IMG/VR virus record: IMGVR_UViG_2531839532_000006
Reading direction: 5' to 3' (one strand)
DNA length: 13,767 bases
Origin: a virus
Taxonomy: Duplodnaviria > Heunggongvirae > Uroviricota > Caudoviricetes
Below the pieces are notes generated by a model that saw nothing but the letters and a program-made list of their open reading frames with translations, was not told the origin of the DNA and ran no database searches. The stretch's first letter is position 1. The number at the start of each line of letters is the position of its first letter. The translations under genes and the position numbers were made by a program. Below are positions 253-9,485 of this stretch, in pieces.

Positions 253-1566
253 ATGATCAAAGAGACTGTTACGATGAGTCATAAGGAACTCCACCGACTT
301 CAGACTATTCAGGAACAAGCTGCGGCACGCATTGGCATTTCTATTCGGCAGGTTAAACGTCTGGTGCAACGGTATAGAAATGAAGGGCCTTCTGGTCTGG
401 TTTCCCACCGACGTGGAAAGCGTCCTAATAATTCCTTTTCTACTGAATTCAGAGCAACAGTAATTTCACTCCTCAAAGGCCGTTACGCTGATTTTGGACC
501 TACGTTTGCGTGCGAAAAATTGCGCGAGATACACGGTTTATCTTTATCCGTTGAAACTCTCAGAAAGTGGATGATAGAAGAGGGGTTATGGCGTGAACGC
601 CGTCGTAAAATTGCCCGTATATATCAACGCCGCATGCGACGACCATCTTACGGTGAACTGATCCAGATTGATGGCTCACCTCATGACTGGTTTGAAAATC
701 GAGGCCCCAGATGTACACTGATCGTTTTCATTGATGATGCCACCAGTGCGTTGATGGCGTTGCGTTTTGTGCCTGCTGAAACAACCCGGGCTTACATGGA
801 AACCCTCCGGGGTTACCTTAATGATCATGGCGTACCGCTCGCTCTCTACTCTGATAGACACAGTATATTCAGGGTAAATAACCCAGAGCGGGAAGGTGAG
901 CTGACCCAGTTCACTCGTGCGATAAAGACACTGGGCATCGAGCCAATCCATGCCAACAGCCCGCAGGCAAAAGGGCGGGTAGAGCGCGCCAATCAGACAC
1001 TACAGGACAGGCTGGTCAAAGAAATGCGGCTTCAGAATATCAGTGATATTGAAACAGCAAATGCATGGTTGCCGACCTTTATTGAAGCCTATAACAACCG
1101 GTTCGCTACGTCGCCTCGTACTACTGATAATGCTCATCTTGATGTGCACCATTCTGAAGAGGAACTGGGTTATATCTTCAGCCTACAGGCGAAGCGCGTT
1201 CTGTCTAAAAATCTCACTTTCCAGTACAAAAGCAGTGCGTTTCAGGTACGCAGTGAGGGCCGGGGATATCGACTTAGGCATTCGGTTGTTACTGTATGCG
1301 AGAACTTTGACGGTGAAATTAACGTTCTGTATGACGGGAAAGCGCTGGGCTGGGAAAAGTATGTTGATGGCCCGGAGCCTATACCACTGGATGATGAAAA
1401 GAGTGTCCATGAACGAGTGGATAATGCCCGTATTGATTTACGCTCAAAATACTATGTTAAACCTAAAGCTGACCATCCCTGGCTTACGCGCCGAACGCAA
1501 AGTCATCAGCAAGTTAAGCCCCCGAAGTTACCTAAAAAGAAGCCTGATCCCGATAAAAAAGATTGA
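253..1566 (+). CDS. DDE-type (rve integrase-core) IS transposase with N-terminal HTH; family not resolved (ISNCY / IS481-like)
   Basis: 437-aa ORF. N-terminus is HTH-like (RIGISIRQVKRLVQRY). Core has acidic residues spaced like a DDE triad (IQIDGSPHDW ... ALYSDRHSIF ... GRVERANQTLQ). ATG at 274 (MSHKEL) is an alternative start. Confidence 0.75.
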   Translation: MIKETVTMSHKELHRLQTIQEQAAARIGISIRQVKRLVQRYRNEGPSGLVSHRRGKRPNNSFSTEFRATVISLLKGRYADFGPTFACEKLREIHGLSLSVETLRKWMIEEGLWRERRRKIARIYQRRMRRPSYGELIQIDGSPHDWFENRGPRCTLIVFIDDATSALMALRFVPAETTRAYMETLRGYLNDHGVPLALYSDRHSIFRVNNPEREGELTQFTRAIKTLGIEPIHANSPQAKGRVERANQTLQDRLVKEMRLQNISDIETANAWLPTFIEAYNNRFATSPRTTDNAHLDVHHSEEELGYIFSLQAKRVLSKNLTFQYKSSAFQVRSEGRGYRLRHSVVTVCENFDGEINVLYDGKALGWEKYVDGPEPIPLDDEKSVHERVDNARIDLRSKYYVKPKADHPWLTRRTQSHQQVKPPKLPKKKPDPDKKD

Positions 1567-3394: not shown

Positions 3395-3465
3395 ACCAAA
3401 GCATGACATCTCTGTTTCGCACCGAAGGTGACACTTCTGCTTTGCGTTGACAGGAGAAGCAGGCT

Positions 3466-3621
3466 ATGAAGCAGCAAAAGGCGATGTTAATCGCCCTGAT
3501 CGTCATCTGTTTAACCGTCATAGTGACGGCACTGGTAACGAGGAAAGACCTCTGCGAGGTACGAATCCGAACCGGCCAGACGGAGGTCGCTGTCTTCACA
3601 GCTTACGAACCTGAGGAGTAA
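3466..3621 (+). CDS. hokD: Hok-family small membrane toxin (HokD / RelF)
   Basis: 51-aa ORF below the ORF-track cutoff, translated by hand: MKQQKAMLIALIVICLTVIVTALVTRKDLCEVRIRTGQTEVAVFTAYEPEE. RBS GGAGAAGCAGG precedes the ATG at 3466; stop TAA at 3619-3621. One TM helix plus the conserved Hok C-terminus. Confidence 0.8.
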   Translation: MKQQKAMLIALIVICLTVIVTALVTRKDLCEVRIRTGQTEVAVFTAYEPEE

Positions 3622-5121: not shown

Positions 5122-5496
5122 ATGCTCATAGATTTGGTTTTACCTTACCCGCCGACGGTGAACACTTACTGGCGACGCCGTGGCAGCACATATTTTGTAT
5201 CAAAAGCCGGGGAGCGTTATCGCCGGGCAGTGGCGCTTATTGTTCGCCAGCAGCGGCTGAAATTAAGCCTGTCCGGAAGGCTGGCGATAAAGGTGATTGC
5301 AGAGCCACCGGATAAGCGTCGTCGCGACCTGGACAATATCCTGAAAGCACCGCTGGATGCGCTGACGCATGCGGGAGTGTTAATGGACGATGAGCAGTTT
5401 GATGAAATCAATATCGTTCGTGGTCAGCCAGTATCTGGAGGACCTCTGGGGGTGAAGATTTACCCCATAATGCATGAAGAGCAGGTCAAAAAATGA
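5122..5496 (+). CDS. rusA: RusA-family Holliday-junction resolvase
   Basis: 124-aa ORF with LPYPPTVNTYWRRRG and RRRDLDNILKAPLDALTHAGVLMDDEQ motifs typical of RusA. SD AGAGGTG upstream; nin-region position immediately before Q. Confidence 0.85.
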   Translation: MLIDLVLPYPPTVNTYWRRRGSTYFVSKAGERYRRAVALIVRQQRLKLSLSGRLAIKVIAEPPDKRRRDLDNILKAPLDALTHAGVLMDDEQFDEINIVRGQPVSGGPLGVKIYPIMHEEQVKK

Positions 5497-6314
5497 AACT
5501 GGAAGATTTACCGAAATACTACTCCCCAAAATCCCCTTGCCTGACCGATGCATCGGCCTCAACGTCAAAAGATGCGCTGAGTATCACTGATGTGATGGCC
5601 GCGCAGGGCATGACACAGAATCGGGCTGAGATGGGGTTTTCTGCGTTCCTGGGGAAAATGGGCATCAGTATGAATGACAGGGCGCGGGCAACAGAATTAC
5701 TGGCAGATTATGCACTCAGTCGGTGCGATCGTGTGGCGGCGTTGAGAAAACTTCCGGCAGAAATAAAACCGGTAGTGATGCGCATTATGGCTACGTATGC
5801 GTTTGAAGATTATGCCCGCAGTGCAGCGAGTAAAAAGCAGTGTCCTTGTTGCCGTGGGGAAAAATTTATTGAAAGCATAGTTTTTACAAACAAGGTCCAG
5901 TATCCGGATGGTAAGCCGCCGGTATGGGCAAAGTGTACGAAAGGTGTGTATCCGTCTTACTGGGAAGAATGGAAAAAAGTCAGGGAGGTGGTAAAAGTTG
6001 CCTGTCCGGAGTGTGGCGGAAAGGGTGAGGTTTCCACCGCCTGTAAGGATTGCCGTGGGCGTGGTGTCGCCATTCATCGTGAAGAGTCGGTAAAACGTGG
6101 TATGCCTGTTATCAGAGACTGCCAGCGTTGTGATGGTCGTGGCTGTGAAAGACTACCATCAACGGAGGCATTTAATGCCATACGCAAAGTGACGAGTGCT
6201 ATCACGCTTGATACGTGGAAAAAATCAGTGAAACGCTTTTACGATACGTTGGTGGTTCGGTTTGACATTGAAGAGGCATGGGCGGAGCGGCAGTTAAAGA
6301 GGGTAACGCGATAG
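5493..6314 (+). CDS. Q: Late-gene antiterminator Q (zinc-ribbon-rich; Q82 / QuuQ-like)
   Basis: 273-aa ORF whose start overlaps the rusA stop (ATGA). Contains CPCCRG, CPECGGKG, CKDCRGRG and CQRCDGRG repeats. A promoter plus intrinsic terminator follow immediately downstream, as expected for Q. Confidence 0.7.
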   Translation: MKLEDLPKYYSPKSPCLTDASASTSKDALSITDVMAAQGMTQNRAEMGFSAFLGKMGISMNDRARATELLADYALSRCDRVAALRKLPAEIKPVVMRIMATYAFEDYARSAASKKQCPCCRGEKFIESIVFTNKVQYPDGKPPVWAKCTKGVYPSYWEEWKKVREVVKVACPECGGKGEVSTACKDCRGRGVAIHREESVKRGMPVIRDCQRCDGRGCERLPSTEAFNAIRKVTSAITLDTWKKSVKRFYDTLVVRFDIEEAWAERQLKRVTR

Positions 6315-6319
6315 TGTTG

Positions 6320-6347
6320 TTGATTTTTCCCGAATCTGTGGTAAATT
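6320..6347 (+). promoter_or_regulatory. Candidate late promoter PR' (-35 TTGATT, 16-nt spacer, -10 TAAATT) with presumed overlapping qut site
   Basis: Promoter-like hexamers sit directly after the Q stop codon and about 50 nt upstream of a strong intrinsic terminator. Confidence 0.45.
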
Positions 6348-6395
6348 TGCTCTAACGATGGGCGTTTTATGCCTGACGTTAGAAGATTTTTTACA

Positions 6396-6418
6396 CCCCG
6401 CCGCCTGGCGGGTTTTTT
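6396..6418 (+). terminator. tR'-like intrinsic terminator downstream of PR'
   Basis: CCCGCC-GCCT-GGCGGG hairpin followed by TTTTTT. Confidence 0.65.
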
Positions 6419-6538
6419 ATGACTGAAATCGCGTCAGTACAGTAAACGCGCTGGTGGCGGTGAATACCTGTCTTTCAGCTTGCTGGCTTTTTCGACAAGA
6501 GTTATTGGTGTGTCACGTTAACCGGAAAAGGAAAAGAC

Positions 6539-6736
6539 ATGCTAAAACAGCAGGATATGACAGAAACCGCCAGAGTGGTGTTTAATGAATTAAGCGTTAC
6601 CGACCCGGCGACAGTCGGGGAGATAGCGCAGAATACTTACCTTTCACGCGAACGCTGCCAGTTAATACTGACTCAGCTGGTTATGGCGGGTCTGGCAGAC
6701 TATCAGTTCGGTTGTTACAGACGCCTTCCGCAGTGA
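6539..6736 (+). CDS. Small hypothetical protein, possibly a winged-helix DNA-binding protein
   Basis: 65-aa ORF with a good RBS (AAAGGAAAAG, about 5 nt spacing). Its stop codon lies within an intrinsic terminator hairpin. Confidence 0.45.
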   Translation: MLKQQDMTETARVVFNELSVTDPATVGEIAQNTYLSRERCQLILTQLVMAGLADYQFGCYRRLPQ

Positions 6737-6747
6737 AGGCTTTTTTA
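6723..6747 (+). terminator. Intrinsic terminator overlapping the stop codon of the 65-aa ORF
   Basis: GCCTTC-CGCAGT-GAAGGC hairpin followed by TTTTTTATTT. Confidence 0.5.
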
Positions 6748-6763
6748 TTTGTGGTAAATGGGC

Positions 6764-6794
6764 GGCTGGTGGGTGTTAGGGGCACCCACCAGCC
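6764..6794. repeat. Perfect 12-bp inverted repeat (GGCTGGTGGGTG / CACCCACCAGCC, 7-nt loop) with no U-tract
   Basis: Seen directly in the leader of the methyltransferase gene. A second copy of the PR' core TGTGGTAAAT sits just upstream at 6752-6761. Confidence 0.6.
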
Positions 6795-6886
6795 ATCTGC
6801 TCATGCGTCCGGATCACAAGCAAACCTCAGGCCCACTGCTTTGCGCAAAAGCAGAATGAGCCTATCAGAGACAGGCTTAATGATCC

Positions 6887-7936
6887 ATGCTTAATACTGT
6901 AAAAATATCCAGTTGTGAGTTAATCAACGCCGACTGCCTGGAATTTATCCGGTCGTTACCCGAAAATTCTGTTGACCTGATAGTCACGGACCCGCCGTAC
7001 TTTAAAGTGAAGCCTGAGGGCTGGGATAACCAGTGGAAGGGCGACGATGATTACCTGAAGTGGCTGGACCAGTGTCTGGCGCAGTTCTGGCGGGTGCTGA
7101 AACCTGCCGGAAGTCTTTACCTGTTCTGTGGTCATCGCCTGGCATCTGATATCGAAATCATGATGCGTGAACGCTTCAGTGTGCTGAACCATATTATCTG
7201 GGCGAAGCCGTCCGGACGCTGGAACGGATGCAACAAGGAAAGCCTGCGGGCGTATTTCCCCGCCACAGAGCGCATTCTGTTCGCGGAACATTATCAGGGG
7301 CCGTATCGTCCGAAAGATGCCGGGTATGCGGCGAAGGGCAGTGCACTGAAACAGCATGTGATGGCCCCGCTGATTTCTTACTTTCGTGATGCGCGCGCGG
7401 CCCTGGGGATAACGGCAAAACAGATTGCAGATGCCACAGGAAAGAAAAACATGGTGTCGCACTGGTTCAGTGCCAGTCAGTGGCAGCTACCGAATGAAAG
7501 CGATTATCTGAAATTACAGGCGCTGTTTGCCCGGGTGGCAGAAGAGAAGCATCGGCGTGGTGAACTGGAAAAGCTCCACCACCAGCTGGTGGATACGTAT
7601 ACCTCACTGAACCGGCAGTATGCGGAGCTGCTGAGTGAATATAAACATCTGCGGCGGTATTTTGGCGTGACGGTGCAGGTGCCGTATACCGATGTGTGGA
7701 CGCATAAACCGGTGCAGTTCTATCCCGGGAAACATCCGTGCGAAAAACCGGCAGAAATGCTGCAGCAGATAATCAGCGCAAGCAGTCGTCCGGGTGACCT
7801 GGTTGCAGATTTTTTTATGGGCTCAGGTTCAACGGTAAAAGCTGCACTGGCGCTCGGGCGTCGTGCGATTGGCGTTGAACTGGAGACCGGACGTTTTGAG
7901 CAGACAGTCAGGGAAGTTCAGGATTTAATCGTTTGA
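6887..7936 (+). CDS. Orphan DNA methyltransferase, beta-class (DPPY motif; most likely N6-adenine)
   Basis: 349-aa ORF with motif IV DLIVTDPPYF near the N-terminus and an FxGxG-type AdoMet motif DFFMGSGST near the C-terminus. No adjacent restriction endonuclease candidate. Confidence 0.85.
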   Translation: MLNTVKISSCELINADCLEFIRSLPENSVDLIVTDPPYFKVKPEGWDNQWKGDDDYLKWLDQCLAQFWRVLKPAGSLYLFCGHRLASDIEIMMRERFSVLNHIIWAKPSGRWNGCNKESLRAYFPATERILFAEHYQGPYRPKDAGYAAKGSALKQHVMAPLISYFRDARAALGITAKQIADATGKKNMVSHWFSASQWQLPNESDYLKLQALFARVAEEKHRRGELEKLHHQLVDTYTSLNRQYAELLSEYKHLRRYFGVTVQVPYTDVWTHKPVQFYPGKHPCEKPAEMLQQIISASSRPGDLVADFFMGSGSTVKAALALGRRAIGVELETGRFEQTVREVQDLIV

Positions 7937-7947
7937 AACGGATGAGA

Positions 7948-7976
7948 TTGCAGAATTAATTACGCACCATTATTAT
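7948..7976 (+). promoter_or_regulatory. Candidate sigma-70 promoter for the tRNA genes (-35 TTGCAG, 17-nt spacer, -10 TATTAT)
   Basis: Hexamers with ideal spacing end about 10 nt before the tRNA 5' end. Confidence 0.45.
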
Positions 7977-7985
7977 TCTGCTCCC

Positions 7986-8061
7986 GGCCCTTTAGCTCAG
8001 TGGTGAGAGCGAGCGACTCATAATCGCCAGGTCGCTGGTTCAAATCCAGCAAGGGCCACCA
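7986..8061 (+). tRNA. ileZ: tRNA with CAU anticodon, ileZ-like (tRNA-Ile2 after lysidine modification, or tRNA-Met)
   Basis: Hand-folded cloverleaf: acceptor GGCCCTT / AAGGGCC, D-arm GCTC...GAGC, anticodon loop CTCATAA, T-arm GCTGG-TTCAAAT-CCAGC, encoded CCA. One A-C mismatch at the top of the anticodon stem. Confidence 0.8.
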
Positions 8062-8161
8062 TCACAAACCGCCATTAGCTTATCAGGAAGAGCAGACGAC
8101 ACGATAACAGGGTTGTTGGTGCGGGGGCGGGTCCCCGATGGCGGTCCATTATCGGTATTCA

Positions 8162-8235
8162 GCGTTGTTAGCTCAGCCGGACAGAGCAATTGCCTTCTAA
8201 GCAATCGGTCACTGGTTCGAATCCAGTACAGCGCG
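8162..8235 (+). tRNA. tRNA-Arg (anticodon UCU), argO-like; 3' CCA not encoded
   Basis: Hand-folded cloverleaf: acceptor GCGTTGT / ACAGCGC (one G-U pair), D-arm GCTC...GAGC, anticodon stem ATTGC / GCAAT with loop CTTCTAA, T-arm ACTGG-TTCGAAT-CCAGT. Discriminator G is followed by CTA. Confidence 0.8.
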
Positions 8236-8375
8236 CTATATTCATTCTTCCAGATTCCTTCCGGCAGAGCCTTATACTGAAATATACCTGGCTCAGGATA
8301 TTGTTGAAAATATTTTATGTTTGTCAAAAATAAAAGTTCTGTTAAGTATTGATTGAGTGTTTGTTATACGGTCTA

Positions 8376-8702: not shown

Positions 8703-9093
8703 ATACATATCTGGATTATCACTTGTTACGGTAAAAAGTGATTGCTTACTGTTTTTGTGAGTGGCATTGCAGCAGCCGGATAATGTCAGTGCTGGCTGAC
8801 GGTGTGCTGGTGGCGGGTGTGGTGGTTGTTGCTTTCCCGTTGCTGAAAAAGAAAACGCCAGACTGTTAGCCGGGTATCAGTTAGCGGGAGAAATTTTTAA
8901 ATACTTCACAATTCAGGCGGTTGACTGTTGTCTGGTTTGCGGGGAGTTTGTTAAAAGAAACTGGCATGGTGAATCCCCCTGTGCGGAGGGGCAATCAGCG
9001 AGTAGGTATATGGGATAATCGCGGATTCAGGTGCTGGTACTGAATTCACCGGGAGGCACCCGGCACCATGCAATGGCACATAGCGCCACTCTC

Positions 9094-9120
9094 CAGCCCC
9101 TCTCCGGAGGGGCTGTTTAT
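9094..9120 (+). terminator. Intrinsic terminator inside the cargo island
   Basis: CAGCCCCTC-TCCG-GAGGGGCTG hairpin followed by TTTATATTGATTTT. Confidence 0.5.
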
Positions 9121-9146
9121 ATTGATTTTGTCAGATGTGAGTAAAC

Positions 9147-9180
9147 TCCTTATGGACTTTGTTGTTTTAGTCCATAAGGA
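9147..9180 (-). terminator. Perfect 12-bp stem-loop overlapping the 3' end of the minus-strand ORF (possible terminator)
   Basis: TCCTTATGGACT-(10-nt loop)-AGTCCATAAGGA. On the minus strand it is followed by GTTTACTC, only moderately U-rich. It encodes the last residues (PYGLKQQSP) of ORF 9150..9485. Confidence 0.4.
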
Positions 9181-9485
9181 CATATTTGCAGAGTGCAACG
9201 GTTATTAAAGCATTCATTCAATACGTTATCTGTATTTGTAGGACATTCCTGGCTGTTTTTGATTAAATTCCAGAATGTTTTATTGAATGGTACTACGTTG
9301 TAAATGGTTACAGGTAGCACTTTGTTATTGAGCATGATACCTGTGTGAGTCAGTGTAAATATACTTTCAGGAGGTAAGAAAGCATCCGATTGATACCAGA
9401 TTATTAATTTTATTTTACTCCATATGACTGAAAAAGATATTCCGCATGATGGCTGGATAACTGTATCAATCACAATCCACTTCAT
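9150..9485 (-). CDS. Hypothetical protein in AT-rich cargo DNA, antisense to the late operon
   Basis: 111-aa ORF with a plausible RBS AAGGAAG about 5 nt before the ATG on the minus strand, and a possible -10 TATACT upstream. No signal peptide recognised; several Cys near the C-terminus. Confidence 0.4.

What the first reader, a model, noticed from the sequence alone, without database searches (positions are those of the whole stretch)
6539..7936. Orphan beta-class DPPY methyltransferase with a small upstream ORF and no restriction partner
The 349-aa methyltransferase has motif IV before motif I and no endonuclease gene beside it. It sits in the late operon between Q and the tRNAs, so it would be expressed on induction. 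Such orphan phage methylases can protect progeny DNA against host restriction. The co-oriented 65-aa ORF upstream could be a small DNA-binding controller.
Basis: partly seen in the sequence, partly recalled or inferred. Interest (0 to 1): 0.4.

Follow-up and report, generated by a model that had tools for sequence, protein, structure and literature searches.

The report
Prophage non-specific adenine methylase (M.EcoGII type)
The gene is a near-copy of M.EcoGII, a known prophage enzyme that methylates every adenine, so the finding itself is ordinary; what is undescribed is the small winged-helix gene and folded RNA leader that almost always come with it.

Summary
Window 6887-7936 encodes an intact 349-aa beta-class amino-methyltransferase (DPPY at residues 35-38, FxGxG at 310-314). 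No nuclease gene lies nearby. It sits downstream of a Q antiterminator, a lambda-like pR' and two intrinsic terminators, and upstream of tRNA-Ile and tRNA-Arg.

It is not new. It is about 94% identical over its full length to M.EcoGII, the characterised non-specific adenine methyltransferase of E. coli prophages. That enzyme is silent in lysogens, toxic when expressed, and proposed to protect phage DNA from restriction. Similar DNA occurs in 3339 of 5426 complete E. coli genomes.

The 65-aa ORF is a real, conserved gene for a stand-alone winged-helix protein (pLDDT 91). It lies next to the methyltransferase in 72 of 73 viral loci, and its function is untested.

Between the two genes lies a roughly 135-nt conserved leader that matches no Rfam family. 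Compensatory changes support two alternative folds, one of which pairs the 15 nt before the methyltransferase AUG. I infer, without direct proof, a post-transcriptional gate on a toxic enzyme, analogous to Mu com-mom.

The parts
5493..6314 (+). Q-type late antiterminator gene (273 aa)
   Evidence: Pfam PF03589 Antiterm, E=1.5e-50. RefSeq names it 'antitermination protein' in the identical region of strain 300709.
6320..6362 (+). Lambda-like late promoter pR': -35 TTGATT 6320-6325, TG-extended -10 TAAATT 6342-6347, and a sigma70 pause-type element AACGAT-GGG at 6354-6362
   Evidence: Pairwise alignment with lambda 44544-44669 shares TTGA..GGTAAATTTG..AACGATGGG. The assignment of these blocks to lambda pR' and its pause element comes from my own knowledge. 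The generic promoter scan did not list the site, because it matches only 8 of 12 positions.
6397..6418 (+). Intrinsic terminator tR' (CCCGCC-GCCT-GGCGGG followed by T6)
   Evidence: Terminator scan: 6 of 6 G-C pairs.
6539..6736 (+). wH65: 65-aa stand-alone winged-helix protein gene (phrog_331; NCBI name 'TrmB family transcriptional regulator')
   Evidence: phrog_331, E=2.8e-37. 333 homologues, all in Enterobacterales. The ORF is kept at 62-67 aa in 59 of 62 loci, with third-codon-position changes dominant. The AlphaFold2 model has pLDDT 91 and the order H1-beta-H2-H3-wing. Foldseek matches winged-helix domains of IclR/MarR regulators, O-methyltransferases and SelB.
6723..6746 (+). Second terminator-like hairpin plus T-run; it contains the wH65 stop codon
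   Evidence: Terminator scan: GCCTTC-CGCAGT-GAAGGC followed by TTTTTTATTT. A hairpin occupies this position in most related loci.
6752..6886 (+). Conserved structured leader of the methyltransferase mRNA. ATGGGC 6758-6763; hairpin H1 6764-6775 with 6783-6794; switch segment 6811-6824; hairpin H3 6836-6842 with 6848-6854; 3' strand of the long-range helix 6875-6886, which abuts the AUG
   Evidence: 46 distinct sequences, 82% mean column identity. The covariance model hits once per locus, always directly before the methyltransferase gene. Pair counts: 92.6% paired against 28-39% in slid controls; 16 pairs with compensatory changes, 0 of 500 shuffles as high. The alternative fold is equally supported. 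G.U outnumbers A.C by 183 to 47. No Rfam family matches.
6887..7936 (+). M.EcoGII-family beta-class N6-adenine methyltransferase (349 aa)
   Evidence: 330/350 identical to the M.EcoGII sequence printed in the supplement of PMC11551740. 95% identical to the phage 1720a-02 enzyme that PMC5778455 names as very similar. PF01555. PADLOC MTase_II PDLC03265, E=7.7e-166.
7986..8061 (+). tRNA with anticodon CAT (ileZ-like; RefSeq calls it tRNA-Ile, ARAGORN calls it tRNA-Met)
8162..8236 (+). tRNA-Arg (TCT)

Best explanation
The 349-aa protein is an allele of M.EcoGII, the sequence-non-specific N6-adenine methyltransferase carried by lambdoid prophages of Enterobacterales.

Shown here: near-identity to M.EcoGII with intact catalytic and SAM-binding motifs, no restriction partner, and a position downstream of Q, pR' and two intrinsic terminators.

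Inferred: in the lysogen, transcripts from pR' stop at tR' and the gene stays silent. After induction, Q-modified RNA polymerase reads through both terminators and transcribes wH65, the leader, the methyltransferase, the tRNAs and the lysis genes. The enzyme then methylates adenines throughout replicating phage DNA, which blunts Type I, II and III restriction in the next host.

Also inferred: because the enzyme is toxic, a second gate acts on the mRNA. The leader can fold so that the 15 nt before the AUG are paired (off). Alternatively, the same switch segment pairs with an upstream strand and frees the start site (on). The linked winged-helix protein wH65 is the best candidate for a factor that sets this balance or otherwise tunes the enzyme.
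For: Identity:
- 330/350 residues match published M.EcoGII, and several of the mismatches are obvious machine-reading errors in the supplement.
- The protein has the same length of 349 aa.
- It is 95% identical to the phage 1720a-02 enzyme, which has the same gene order of Q, small ORF, methyltransferase.
- REBASE-based typing labels homologues of 92-94% similarity as non-specific (PMC6602927).

Biochemistry and biology of the family: methylation of A in any context, blocking of many restriction enzymes, silence in lysogens and toxicity are reported in PMC5778455 and PMC12707154.

Context: Q, a lambda-like pR' and two terminators. No nuclease gene is present.

Leader. These include one nucleotide that covaries with both of its alternative partners (U-A-U in 38 sequences, C-G-C in 4).

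Linkage:
- The leader motif is followed by the methyltransferase ATG at 130-133 nt in 112 of 116 viral loci.
- It is preceded by wH65 in 106 of 110 viral loci.
- wH65 is followed by the methyltransferase in 72 of 73 viral loci.
- wH65 is present in about 60 of 78 loci from diverse genera.
Against: - Non-specificity was not measured for this allele. The roughly 20 differences from M.EcoGII cluster in the presumed target-recognition region (residues 148-255).
- No experiment in any paper I read shows that the enzyme protects phage DNA during a real infection.
- Timing of expression is inferred from sequence only.
- The leader alignment used for pair counts was fitted to the model, which favours the tested structures.
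- About a fifth of genomic loci keep the leader and the methyltransferase but lack wH65, so wH65 cannot be strictly required.
- wH65 is slightly acidic overall. Its fold matches DNA-binding, RNA-binding and dimerisation winged helices equally.
Confidence: 0.8

Rival explanations
1. The enzyme is a site-specific orphan methyltransferase with its own recognition motif. It would protect against one or a few restriction systems, or act as an epigenetic regulator.
For: Most PF01555 enzymes are site-specific. The closest solved structures belong to specific enzymes such as RsrI and CcrM. Differences from M.EcoGII lie in the central region where target recognition is expected.
Against: It is 94% identical to M.EcoGII. 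M.EcoGI, which is 95% identical to M.EcoGII, is treated as non-specific, as are homologues of 92-94% similarity. Reconstructed ancestors of the clade, far more divergent than this allele, remain non-site-specific (PMC11551740).
Confidence: 0.05
2. wH65 is a DNA-binding transcription factor, a functional analogue of the controller proteins of restriction-modification systems. It would act on a promoter or operator within the module, for instance at the palindromic H1 region or the TGTG-AAAT-GGG box at the start of the leader.
For: The best structural matches are DNA-binding winged-helix domains of IclR and MarR regulators, with TM-score up to 0.82. There is a weak TrmB match. The leader begins with a conserved extended -10-like TGTGnAAAT followed by GGG, directly after a terminator. 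H1 is a long palindrome.
Against: No -35 element is present, and the -10-like box varies in register between genera. H1 varies by compensatory changes that tolerate G.U on the sense strand (183 G.U against 47 A.C), which points to RNA pairing rather than a protein-read operator. H1 and the rest of the leader persist where wH65 is absent.
Confidence: 0.3
3. wH65 is a Com-like translational activator. It binds the methyltransferase leader RNA and shifts it from the start-site-sequestered fold to the open fold.
For: The layout matches Mu com-mom and the com-like gene plus non-specific adenine methyltransferase operons of FluMu, Pnm1 and Hia: a small gene directly upstream of a toxic, late, DNA-modifying gene whose 5' end carries regulatory structure (PMC3299994; PMC6483171). 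The leader has two covarying alternative folds, one of which covers the ribosome-binding region. Winged helices can bind RNA, as in SelB, which is among the fold hits.
Against: wH65 has no zinc finger and is unrelated to Com. It is not basic. The leader occurs without it in about 20% of genomic loci. There is no direct evidence of RNA binding.
Confidence: 0.25
4. wH65 is a protein partner of the methyltransferase: an adaptor that targets it to phage DNA, or an inhibitor that limits damage to the host. The leader would act by itself as a folding timer that allows only a brief burst of translation.
For: Near-obligate gene linkage. The family is narrow, with only about 90 clusters among 1.84 billion representative proteins, which fits a dedicated partner. 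Winged-helix domains serve as dimerisation modules in O-methyltransferases. The two folds are close in energy in many sequences.
Against: M.EcoGII is fully active alone in vitro and in vivo (PMC5778455). No fusion proteins or co-variation data were obtained.
Confidence: 0.2
5. The gene is a decaying remnant in a cryptic prophage and has no current function.
For: M.EcoGII was described as residing on a cryptic prophage. The window carries an IS element and annotated pseudogenes nearby.
Against: The ORF is intact, with all motifs. The region is 100% identical in other strains, and the enzyme keeps 61-98% protein identity from Escherichia to Proteus, with a conserved partner gene and leader.
Confidence: 0.03

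Closest known systems
M.EcoGII and M.EcoGI (E. coli O104:H4 C227-11 prophages; GenBank EGT69837.1 for M.EcoGII)
   Same: 349 aa and about 94% identical. Beta-class order with DPPY and FxGxG. Orphan. Located in a lambdoid prophage. By inference non-specific, silent in the lysogen and toxic.
   Different: About 20 substitutions, mostly at residues 148-255. This allele lies in a non-Stx prophage of an enterotoxigenic-type strain. Its activity has not been measured.
Mu com-mom operon, and the com-like gene plus non-specific adenine methyltransferase operons (hin1523, nma1821, hia5) of Mu-like prophages
   Same: A small gene sits directly upstream of a late, host-toxic DNA-modification gene that gives broad protection from restriction. 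Regulatory RNA structure is present at the 5' end of the modification gene.
   Different: Com is a Cys4 zinc-finger protein, whereas wH65 is a winged helix with no metal site. Mom and Hin1523 are unrelated to PF01555 beta-class enzymes. The phage type differs (transposable versus lambdoid). Binding of wH65 to the leader is not shown.
Controller (C) proteins of Type II restriction-modification systems
   Same: A small co-oriented gene upstream of a modification gene, with a fold that could bind nucleic acid.
   Different: C-proteins are XRE-type helix-turn-helix proteins that act on C-boxes and time a nuclease. Here there is no nuclease, no XRE domain, and no C-box has been identified.
Other phage orphan adenine methyltransferases (T4 Dam, P1 Dmt, Stx-phage M.EcoVT2Dam)
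   Same: Phage-borne orphan N6-adenine methyltransferases with proposed anti-restriction or packaging roles.
   Different: Those enzymes are GATC-specific and of a different class, and in Stx phages they lie in the early region. This one is beta-class, non-specific by homology, and lies in the late region.
Solved beta-class enzymes (PDB 8urk/9c3u, M.RsrI 1eg2, CcrM 6pbd, M.MboIIA 1g60)
   Same: Shared catalytic core. The N-terminal motif IV block and the C-terminal motif I block both align.
   Different: Similarity is limited to about 100 N-terminal and 55 C-terminal residues. The 170-residue middle region has no solved relative, and no M.EcoGII structure is in the PDB copy searched.

Membership tests
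Beta-class N6/N4 amino-methyltransferases (Pfam PF01555) | Catalytic motif IV (D/S-P-P-Y/F) lies N-terminal to the SAM-binding motif I (FxGxG) | tested here: met
   DPPY at residues 35-38 and FMGSG at 310-314.
Beta-class N6/N4 amino-methyltransferases (Pfam PF01555) | Profile match above the curated threshold | tested here: met
   147.8 bits against a cut-off of 26.7, covering profile positions 1-219 of 221.
M.EcoGII family (non-specific adenine methyltransferases of enterobacterial prophages) | Full-length close similarity to M.EcoGII | tested here: met
   330/350 identical to the sequence in the PMC11551740 supplement. 95% identical to the phage 1720a-02 enzyme cited in PMC5778455.
M.EcoGII family (non-specific adenine methyltransferases of enterobacterial prophages) | Encoded in a prophage, without a cognate nuclease | tested here: met
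   Flanked by Q, RusA, tRNAs, holin, lysozyme and Rz genes. No nuclease model hits.
M.EcoGII family (non-specific adenine methyltransferases of enterobacterial prophages) | Methylates adenine in any sequence context | not testable with these tools
   Inferred from 94% identity only. Needs enzyme assay or long-read methylome.
M.EcoGII family (non-specific adenine methyltransferases of enterobacterial prophages) | Silent in the lysogen | not testable with these tools
   Two intrinsic terminators lie between pR' and the gene, and the leader can sequester the start site. These fit silence but do not prove it.
Type II restriction-modification system | Adjacent restriction endonuclease gene | tested here: not met
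   No PADLOC or Pfam nuclease hit in the ORFs scanned across the window, and none in the RefSeq annotation.
Controller (C) proteins | XRE-type helix-turn-helix domain of about 80 aa | tested here: not met
   No HTH_3/XRE match. The predicted fold is a winged helix.
Controller (C) proteins | C-box operator upstream of its own gene | not tested
   I did not search the region 6413-6538 for conserved operator repeats.
Mu Com translational activators | Cys4 zinc finger | tested here: not met
   Only one invariant cysteine (C40) and one clade-specific cysteine (C59). The fold is a winged helix.
Mu Com translational activators | Small gene directly upstream of a toxic late DNA-modification gene whose mRNA start is occluded by structure | tested here: met
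   Gene order and linkage. The long-range helix covers the 15 nt before the AUG.
Mu Com translational activators | Binds the target mRNA and opens the inhibitory structure | not testable with these tools
   Needs RNA-binding and reporter assays.
TrmB family regulators (Pfam PF01978) | Profile match above the curated threshold | tested here: not met
   17.3 bits against a cut-off of 25.6, E=0.0044. The NCBI name 'TrmB family' rests on weak similarity. wH65 is a bare winged helix with no sensor domain.

The most novel reading that the evidence does not exclude
The winged-helix protein and the roughly 135-nt leader form an undescribed post-transcriptional gate for a toxic, non-specific methyltransferase. 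The leader would be a two-state RNA switch, a new RNA motif absent from Rfam, that hides or exposes a Shine-Dalgarno-less start site. wH65 would represent a new, narrowly distributed family of winged-helix regulators that sets the switch or directs the enzyme. This would be a lambdoid counterpart of Mu com-mom built from unrelated parts.
Probability: 0.3. Interest if true: 0.55.

Novelty: already known. Interest (0 to 1): 0.3.

Why it matters
The enzyme family is already a commercial reagent and a chromatin-footprinting tool, so the gene itself adds nothing new.

What could matter is how phages keep such a dangerous enzyme off until the cell is doomed. The conserved partner gene and two-state leader give a concrete, testable model for that control.

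They may also help to explain the instability reported when M.EcoGII was first cloned for constitutive expression. In Stx phages the same module lies between pR' and the toxin genes. Its terminators and leader are therefore part of the transcript that carries stx.

Tried and rejected
- Supplementary Table S1 of the M.EcoGII paper is not held. I took the M.EcoGII sequence from the SUPREM paper's supplement instead. That text is machine-read and contains errors such as NHHIWA and RRRAIG, so 94% is a lower bound.
- Single-sequence AlphaFold2 of wH65 gave a poor model with pLDDT 56. It was redone with an alignment.
- RNAalifold on the plain MAFFT alignment gave a weak consensus, with a covariation term of -0.52, because loops were misaligned. 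I replaced it with a covariance-model alignment.
- A conserved upstream peptide translationally coupled to the methyltransferase was considered. I rejected it because 1-nt indels shift the frame between genera and start codons are not conserved, and leader variation shows no codon periodicity.
- A promoter at the start of the leader was considered and left unresolved. There is no -35, and the register of the -10-like box varies.
- Rfam gave no family at the gathering threshold or at E-values up to 10.
- Protein ids beyond the 120 listed homologues were not retrievable.
- The paper on pR' regions of Stx phages does not mention the methylase or the small ORF.
- The covariance model did not detect the shorter leader of Xenorhabdus and Photorhabdus. 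I did not analyse that version.
Full report
**1. The observation**

The window contains an uninterrupted 349-codon ORF at 6887-7936 on the + strand and a co-oriented 65-codon ORF at 6539-6736. In the large protein, DPPY lies at residues 35-38 and F-M-G-S-G at residues 310-314. The catalytic motif IV therefore precedes the SAM-binding motif I, which defines the beta class. Pfam N6_N4_Mtase matches almost end to end (E=5.8e-43). The catalytic and SAM blocks align with solved beta-class enzymes (PDB 8urk/9c3u, M.RsrI, CcrM, M.MboIIA).

Upstream are DUF968, RusA and a Q-type antiterminator (PF03589, E=1.5e-50). Downstream are two tRNAs, followed by holin, lysozyme and Rz-type lysis genes. None of the ORFs scanned matches a restriction or other defence model in PADLOC except the methyltransferase itself. 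The RefSeq annotation of the identical region in E. coli strain 300709 lists no nuclease. Every factual statement in the finding holds.

**2. What the methyltransferase is**

The region 6300-8300 is 92-94% identical to many Stx-converting phages and to phage 1720a-02. Similar DNA occurs in 3339 of 5426 complete E. coli genomes. The M.EcoGII paper describes a 349-aa beta-class enzyme of a "very large family" in E. coli prophages. It names phage 1720a-02 as carrying a very similar enzyme, and states that M.EcoGI and M.EcoGII share 333 of 349 residues (PMC5778455).

The window protein is 95% identical to the 1720a-02 enzyme. It matches 330 of 350 aligned residues of the M.EcoGII sequence printed in the supplement of PMC11551740. 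That text is machine-read and has evident errors, so the true identity is slightly higher. Published typing of homologues with 92-94% similarity assigns them "nonspecific" (PMC6602927). Reconstructed ancestors of the clade remain non-site-specific (PMC11551740).

This gene is therefore a member of an already characterised family. M.EcoGII methylates adenine in any context in double-stranded DNA, single-stranded DNA and RNA. It blocks many restriction enzymes, is not expressed in the lysogen, and slows growth when expressed. [quoted passage not shown]

**3. Transcriptional setting**

Directly after Q, window 6320-6362 aligns with lambda pR'. The shared blocks are TTGA, GGTAAATTTG (containing -10 TAAATT) and AACGATGGG. 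From my own knowledge, the last block is the sigma70-dependent pause element at which lambda Q loads.

An intrinsic terminator follows at 6397-6412 with a T-run. A second terminator-like hairpin with a T-run lies at 6723-6746 and encloses the stop codon of the 65-aa ORF. The layout fits a late unit that is terminated in the lysogen and read through after Q acts. This is inference from sequence. I found no expression data for this module.

**4. The 65-aa ORF**

It is a real gene. It matches phrog_331 (E=2.8e-37) and has 333 homologues in Escherichia, Shigella, Salmonella, Klebsiella, Citrobacter and Buttiauxella. More distant versions, 36-42% identical, occur in Xenorhabdus and Photorhabdus.

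Across 62 loci the ORF keeps a length of 62-67 aa in 59 cases, and third-codon positions carry most differences. With a 29-sequence alignment, AlphaFold2 gives a confident model (pLDDT 91) of a canonical winged helix: H1, short strand, H2, H3, beta-hairpin wing.

Foldseek finds only generic winged-helix matches. These are DNA-binding domains of IclR and MarR regulators, N-terminal domains of O-methyltransferases, and an RNA-binding winged helix of SelB (E about 1e-3, TM-score 0.7-0.82). The TrmB label used by NCBI rests on a sub-threshold match of 17.3 bits against a 25.6-bit cut-off. The protein is not an XRE-type controller protein and not a Com-type zinc finger. A profile search of 1.84 billion representative proteins finds only 90 clusters, almost all stand-alone proteins of 60-110 aa.

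**5. Linkage**

I examined 80 loci from one genome per species that encode a relative of the methyltransferase (61-98% identity, Escherichia to Proteus, Xenorhabdus and Photorhabdus). The small ORF lies 150-350 nt upstream on the same strand in about 60 of 78 loci with upstream DNA. The Q type and the neighbouring nin-region genes vary. Where the small ORF is missing, unrelated cargo or an IS element takes its place.

In viral contigs, 72 of 73 loci with the small ORF have the methyltransferase within 600 nt downstream.

**6. The leader**

The 135 nt before the methyltransferase ATG (6752-6886) are more conserved than expected for a spacer. Forty-six distinct sequences show 82% mean column identity. 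Conservation extends to loci that lack the small ORF and to Proteus, where the enzyme itself is only 61% identical. No Rfam family matches.

Single-sequence folds of diverse members converge on two architectures.

- **Fold A.** ATGGGC pairs with GCYYRT around a long hairpin H1. A long-range helix joins 6811-6821 to 6875-6886, which is the stretch that ends at the AUG.
- **Fold B.** TGGGC pairs with GCCCA. The segment 6819-6824 instead pairs with 6796-6801 (hairpin H2), and a 3' hairpin forms that leaves the start codon free.

A covariance model built on fold A hits once in each of 49 loci, always directly before the methyltransferase gene. It gives only one other, weak hit in 690 kb: a partial copy in L007.

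| Measure | Fold A | Fold B |
|---|---|---|
| Cells forming a standard pair | 92.6% | 93.4% |
| Same, partners slid by 1-3 columns | 28-39% | 29-43% |
| Pairs with changes on both sides | 16 | 14 |
| Same, slid controls | 4-9 | 4-10 |
| Shuffles reaching the observed count | 0 of 500 | 0 of 500 |

In fold B, one H2 pair is seen as C-G in 22 sequences, A-U in 8, U-A in 8 and U-G in 4.

One switch nucleotide covaries with both of its alternative partners: U-A-U in 38 sequences and C-G-C in 4. G.U pairs outnumber A.C by 183 to 47, which points to RNA of the sense strand rather than a DNA palindrome. The two folds are close in energy in many sequences.

There are caveats. The alignment was fitted to the model, the sequences are related, and fold B was derived from one member.

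The methyltransferase has no usable Shine-Dalgarno sequence. The nearest AGG lies 12 nt from the ATG in the window, and other genera have none. The small ORF, by contrast, has a good one.

In viral contigs the leader motif AATGGGCGGCTGGTGGGTGTT is followed by the methyltransferase ATG at 130-133 nt in 112 of 116 cases. It is preceded by the small ORF in 106 of 110.

**7. Mechanism proposed**

*Shown:* identity of the enzyme family, orphan status, late-region position, terminators, a conserved partner gene with a winged-helix fold, and a conserved leader with covariation for two folds.

*Inferred:* Q-dependent read-through after induction and global adenine methylation of progeny DNA as broad anti-restriction. 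Also inferred is a second, post-transcriptional gate in which the leader hides the start site unless refolded. The refolding could be kinetic, during transcription, or driven by a factor, and wH65 is the obvious candidate.

The closest functional precedent is Mu com-mom. Related cases are the com-like gene plus non-specific adenine methyltransferase operons of FluMu, Pnm1 and H. influenzae biotype aegyptius, where regulatory elements were noted at the 5' end of the methyltransferase gene (PMC3299994; PMC6483171). The parts here are unrelated to Com and Mom, so this is an analogy in how it works, not family membership.

**8. Rivals**

- A site-specific enzyme is unlikely at 94% identity to M.EcoGII.
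- For wH65 the evidence does not separate three roles: DNA-binding regulator, RNA-binding activator, or protein partner. Its absence from about a fifth of genomic loci argues against any strictly essential role.
- A decaying gene is excluded by the intact ORF and family-wide conservation.

**9. Verdict**

The finding is accurate but describes a known enzyme family, so its interest is low. The conserved winged-helix partner and the two-state leader are not in Rfam and were not mentioned in any paper I read. They are the only part worth follow-up.

Noticed in passing
window 6752-6886: A conserved leader of about 135 nt before the methyltransferase ATG. Covariation supports two mutually exclusive folds, one of which pairs the 15 nt before the AUG. 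It matches no Rfam family. The methyltransferase lacks a Shine-Dalgarno sequence.
   Followed up: yes
window 6723-6746: A terminator-like hairpin plus T-run encloses the stop codon of the 65-aa ORF. A ribosome finishing that ORF could interfere with hairpin formation, which would give attenuation-like coupling. A hairpin occupies this position in most related loci.
   Followed up: partly
window 6320-6418: A lambda-like pR' with the AACGAT-GGG pause element, followed by terminator tR'. The short terminated transcript would be the counterpart of lambda 6S RNA and of the StxS small RNA of Stx phages (PMC7547250 was listed but not read in detail).
   Followed up: partly
window 6337-6346 and 6752-6761: The 10-mer TGTGGTAAAT occurs both at the pR' -10 region and at the start of the leader, and ATGGGCG follows shortly after in both places. 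This may be chance, a second weak promoter, or a trace of modular recombination.
   Followed up: no
window 253-1566: A 437-aa transposase with HTH and rve_3 domains. RefSeq annotates the matching DNA in other strains as an IS1202-like ISEsa1 family transposase. Left of about position 3450 the window is not collinear with strain 300709.
   Followed up: partly
window 3466-3621: A 51-aa ORF that corresponds to the type I toxin hokD in the RefSeq annotation of the identical region.
   Followed up: no
window 8935-9124 and 9150-9485 (-): Rfam small RNA STnc100 (132 bits) lies next to the anti-adaptor gene iraM on the opposite strand. Both occupy the slot where Stx phages carry stxAB.
   Followed up: no
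window 7986-8061: A tRNA with anticodon CAT is called tRNA-Met by ARAGORN and tRNA-Ile by RefSeq (ileZ-like, presumably lysidine-modified). The window has two tRNAs, whereas Stx phages have three.
   Followed up: no
L007 3025-3101: A second, partial copy of the 5' domain of the leader (ATGGGC plus hairpin H1) lies about 800 nt upstream of the full leader in a Trabulsiella prophage.
   Followed up: no
L047-L079 (Xenorhabdus and Photorhabdus loci), about 110 nt before the methyltransferase ATG: These genera have a shorter leader that keeps the TGAAATGG box and H1 but lacks the H3 domain. Their version of the small protein is 36-42% identical. The covariance model does not detect this leader.
   Followed up: no
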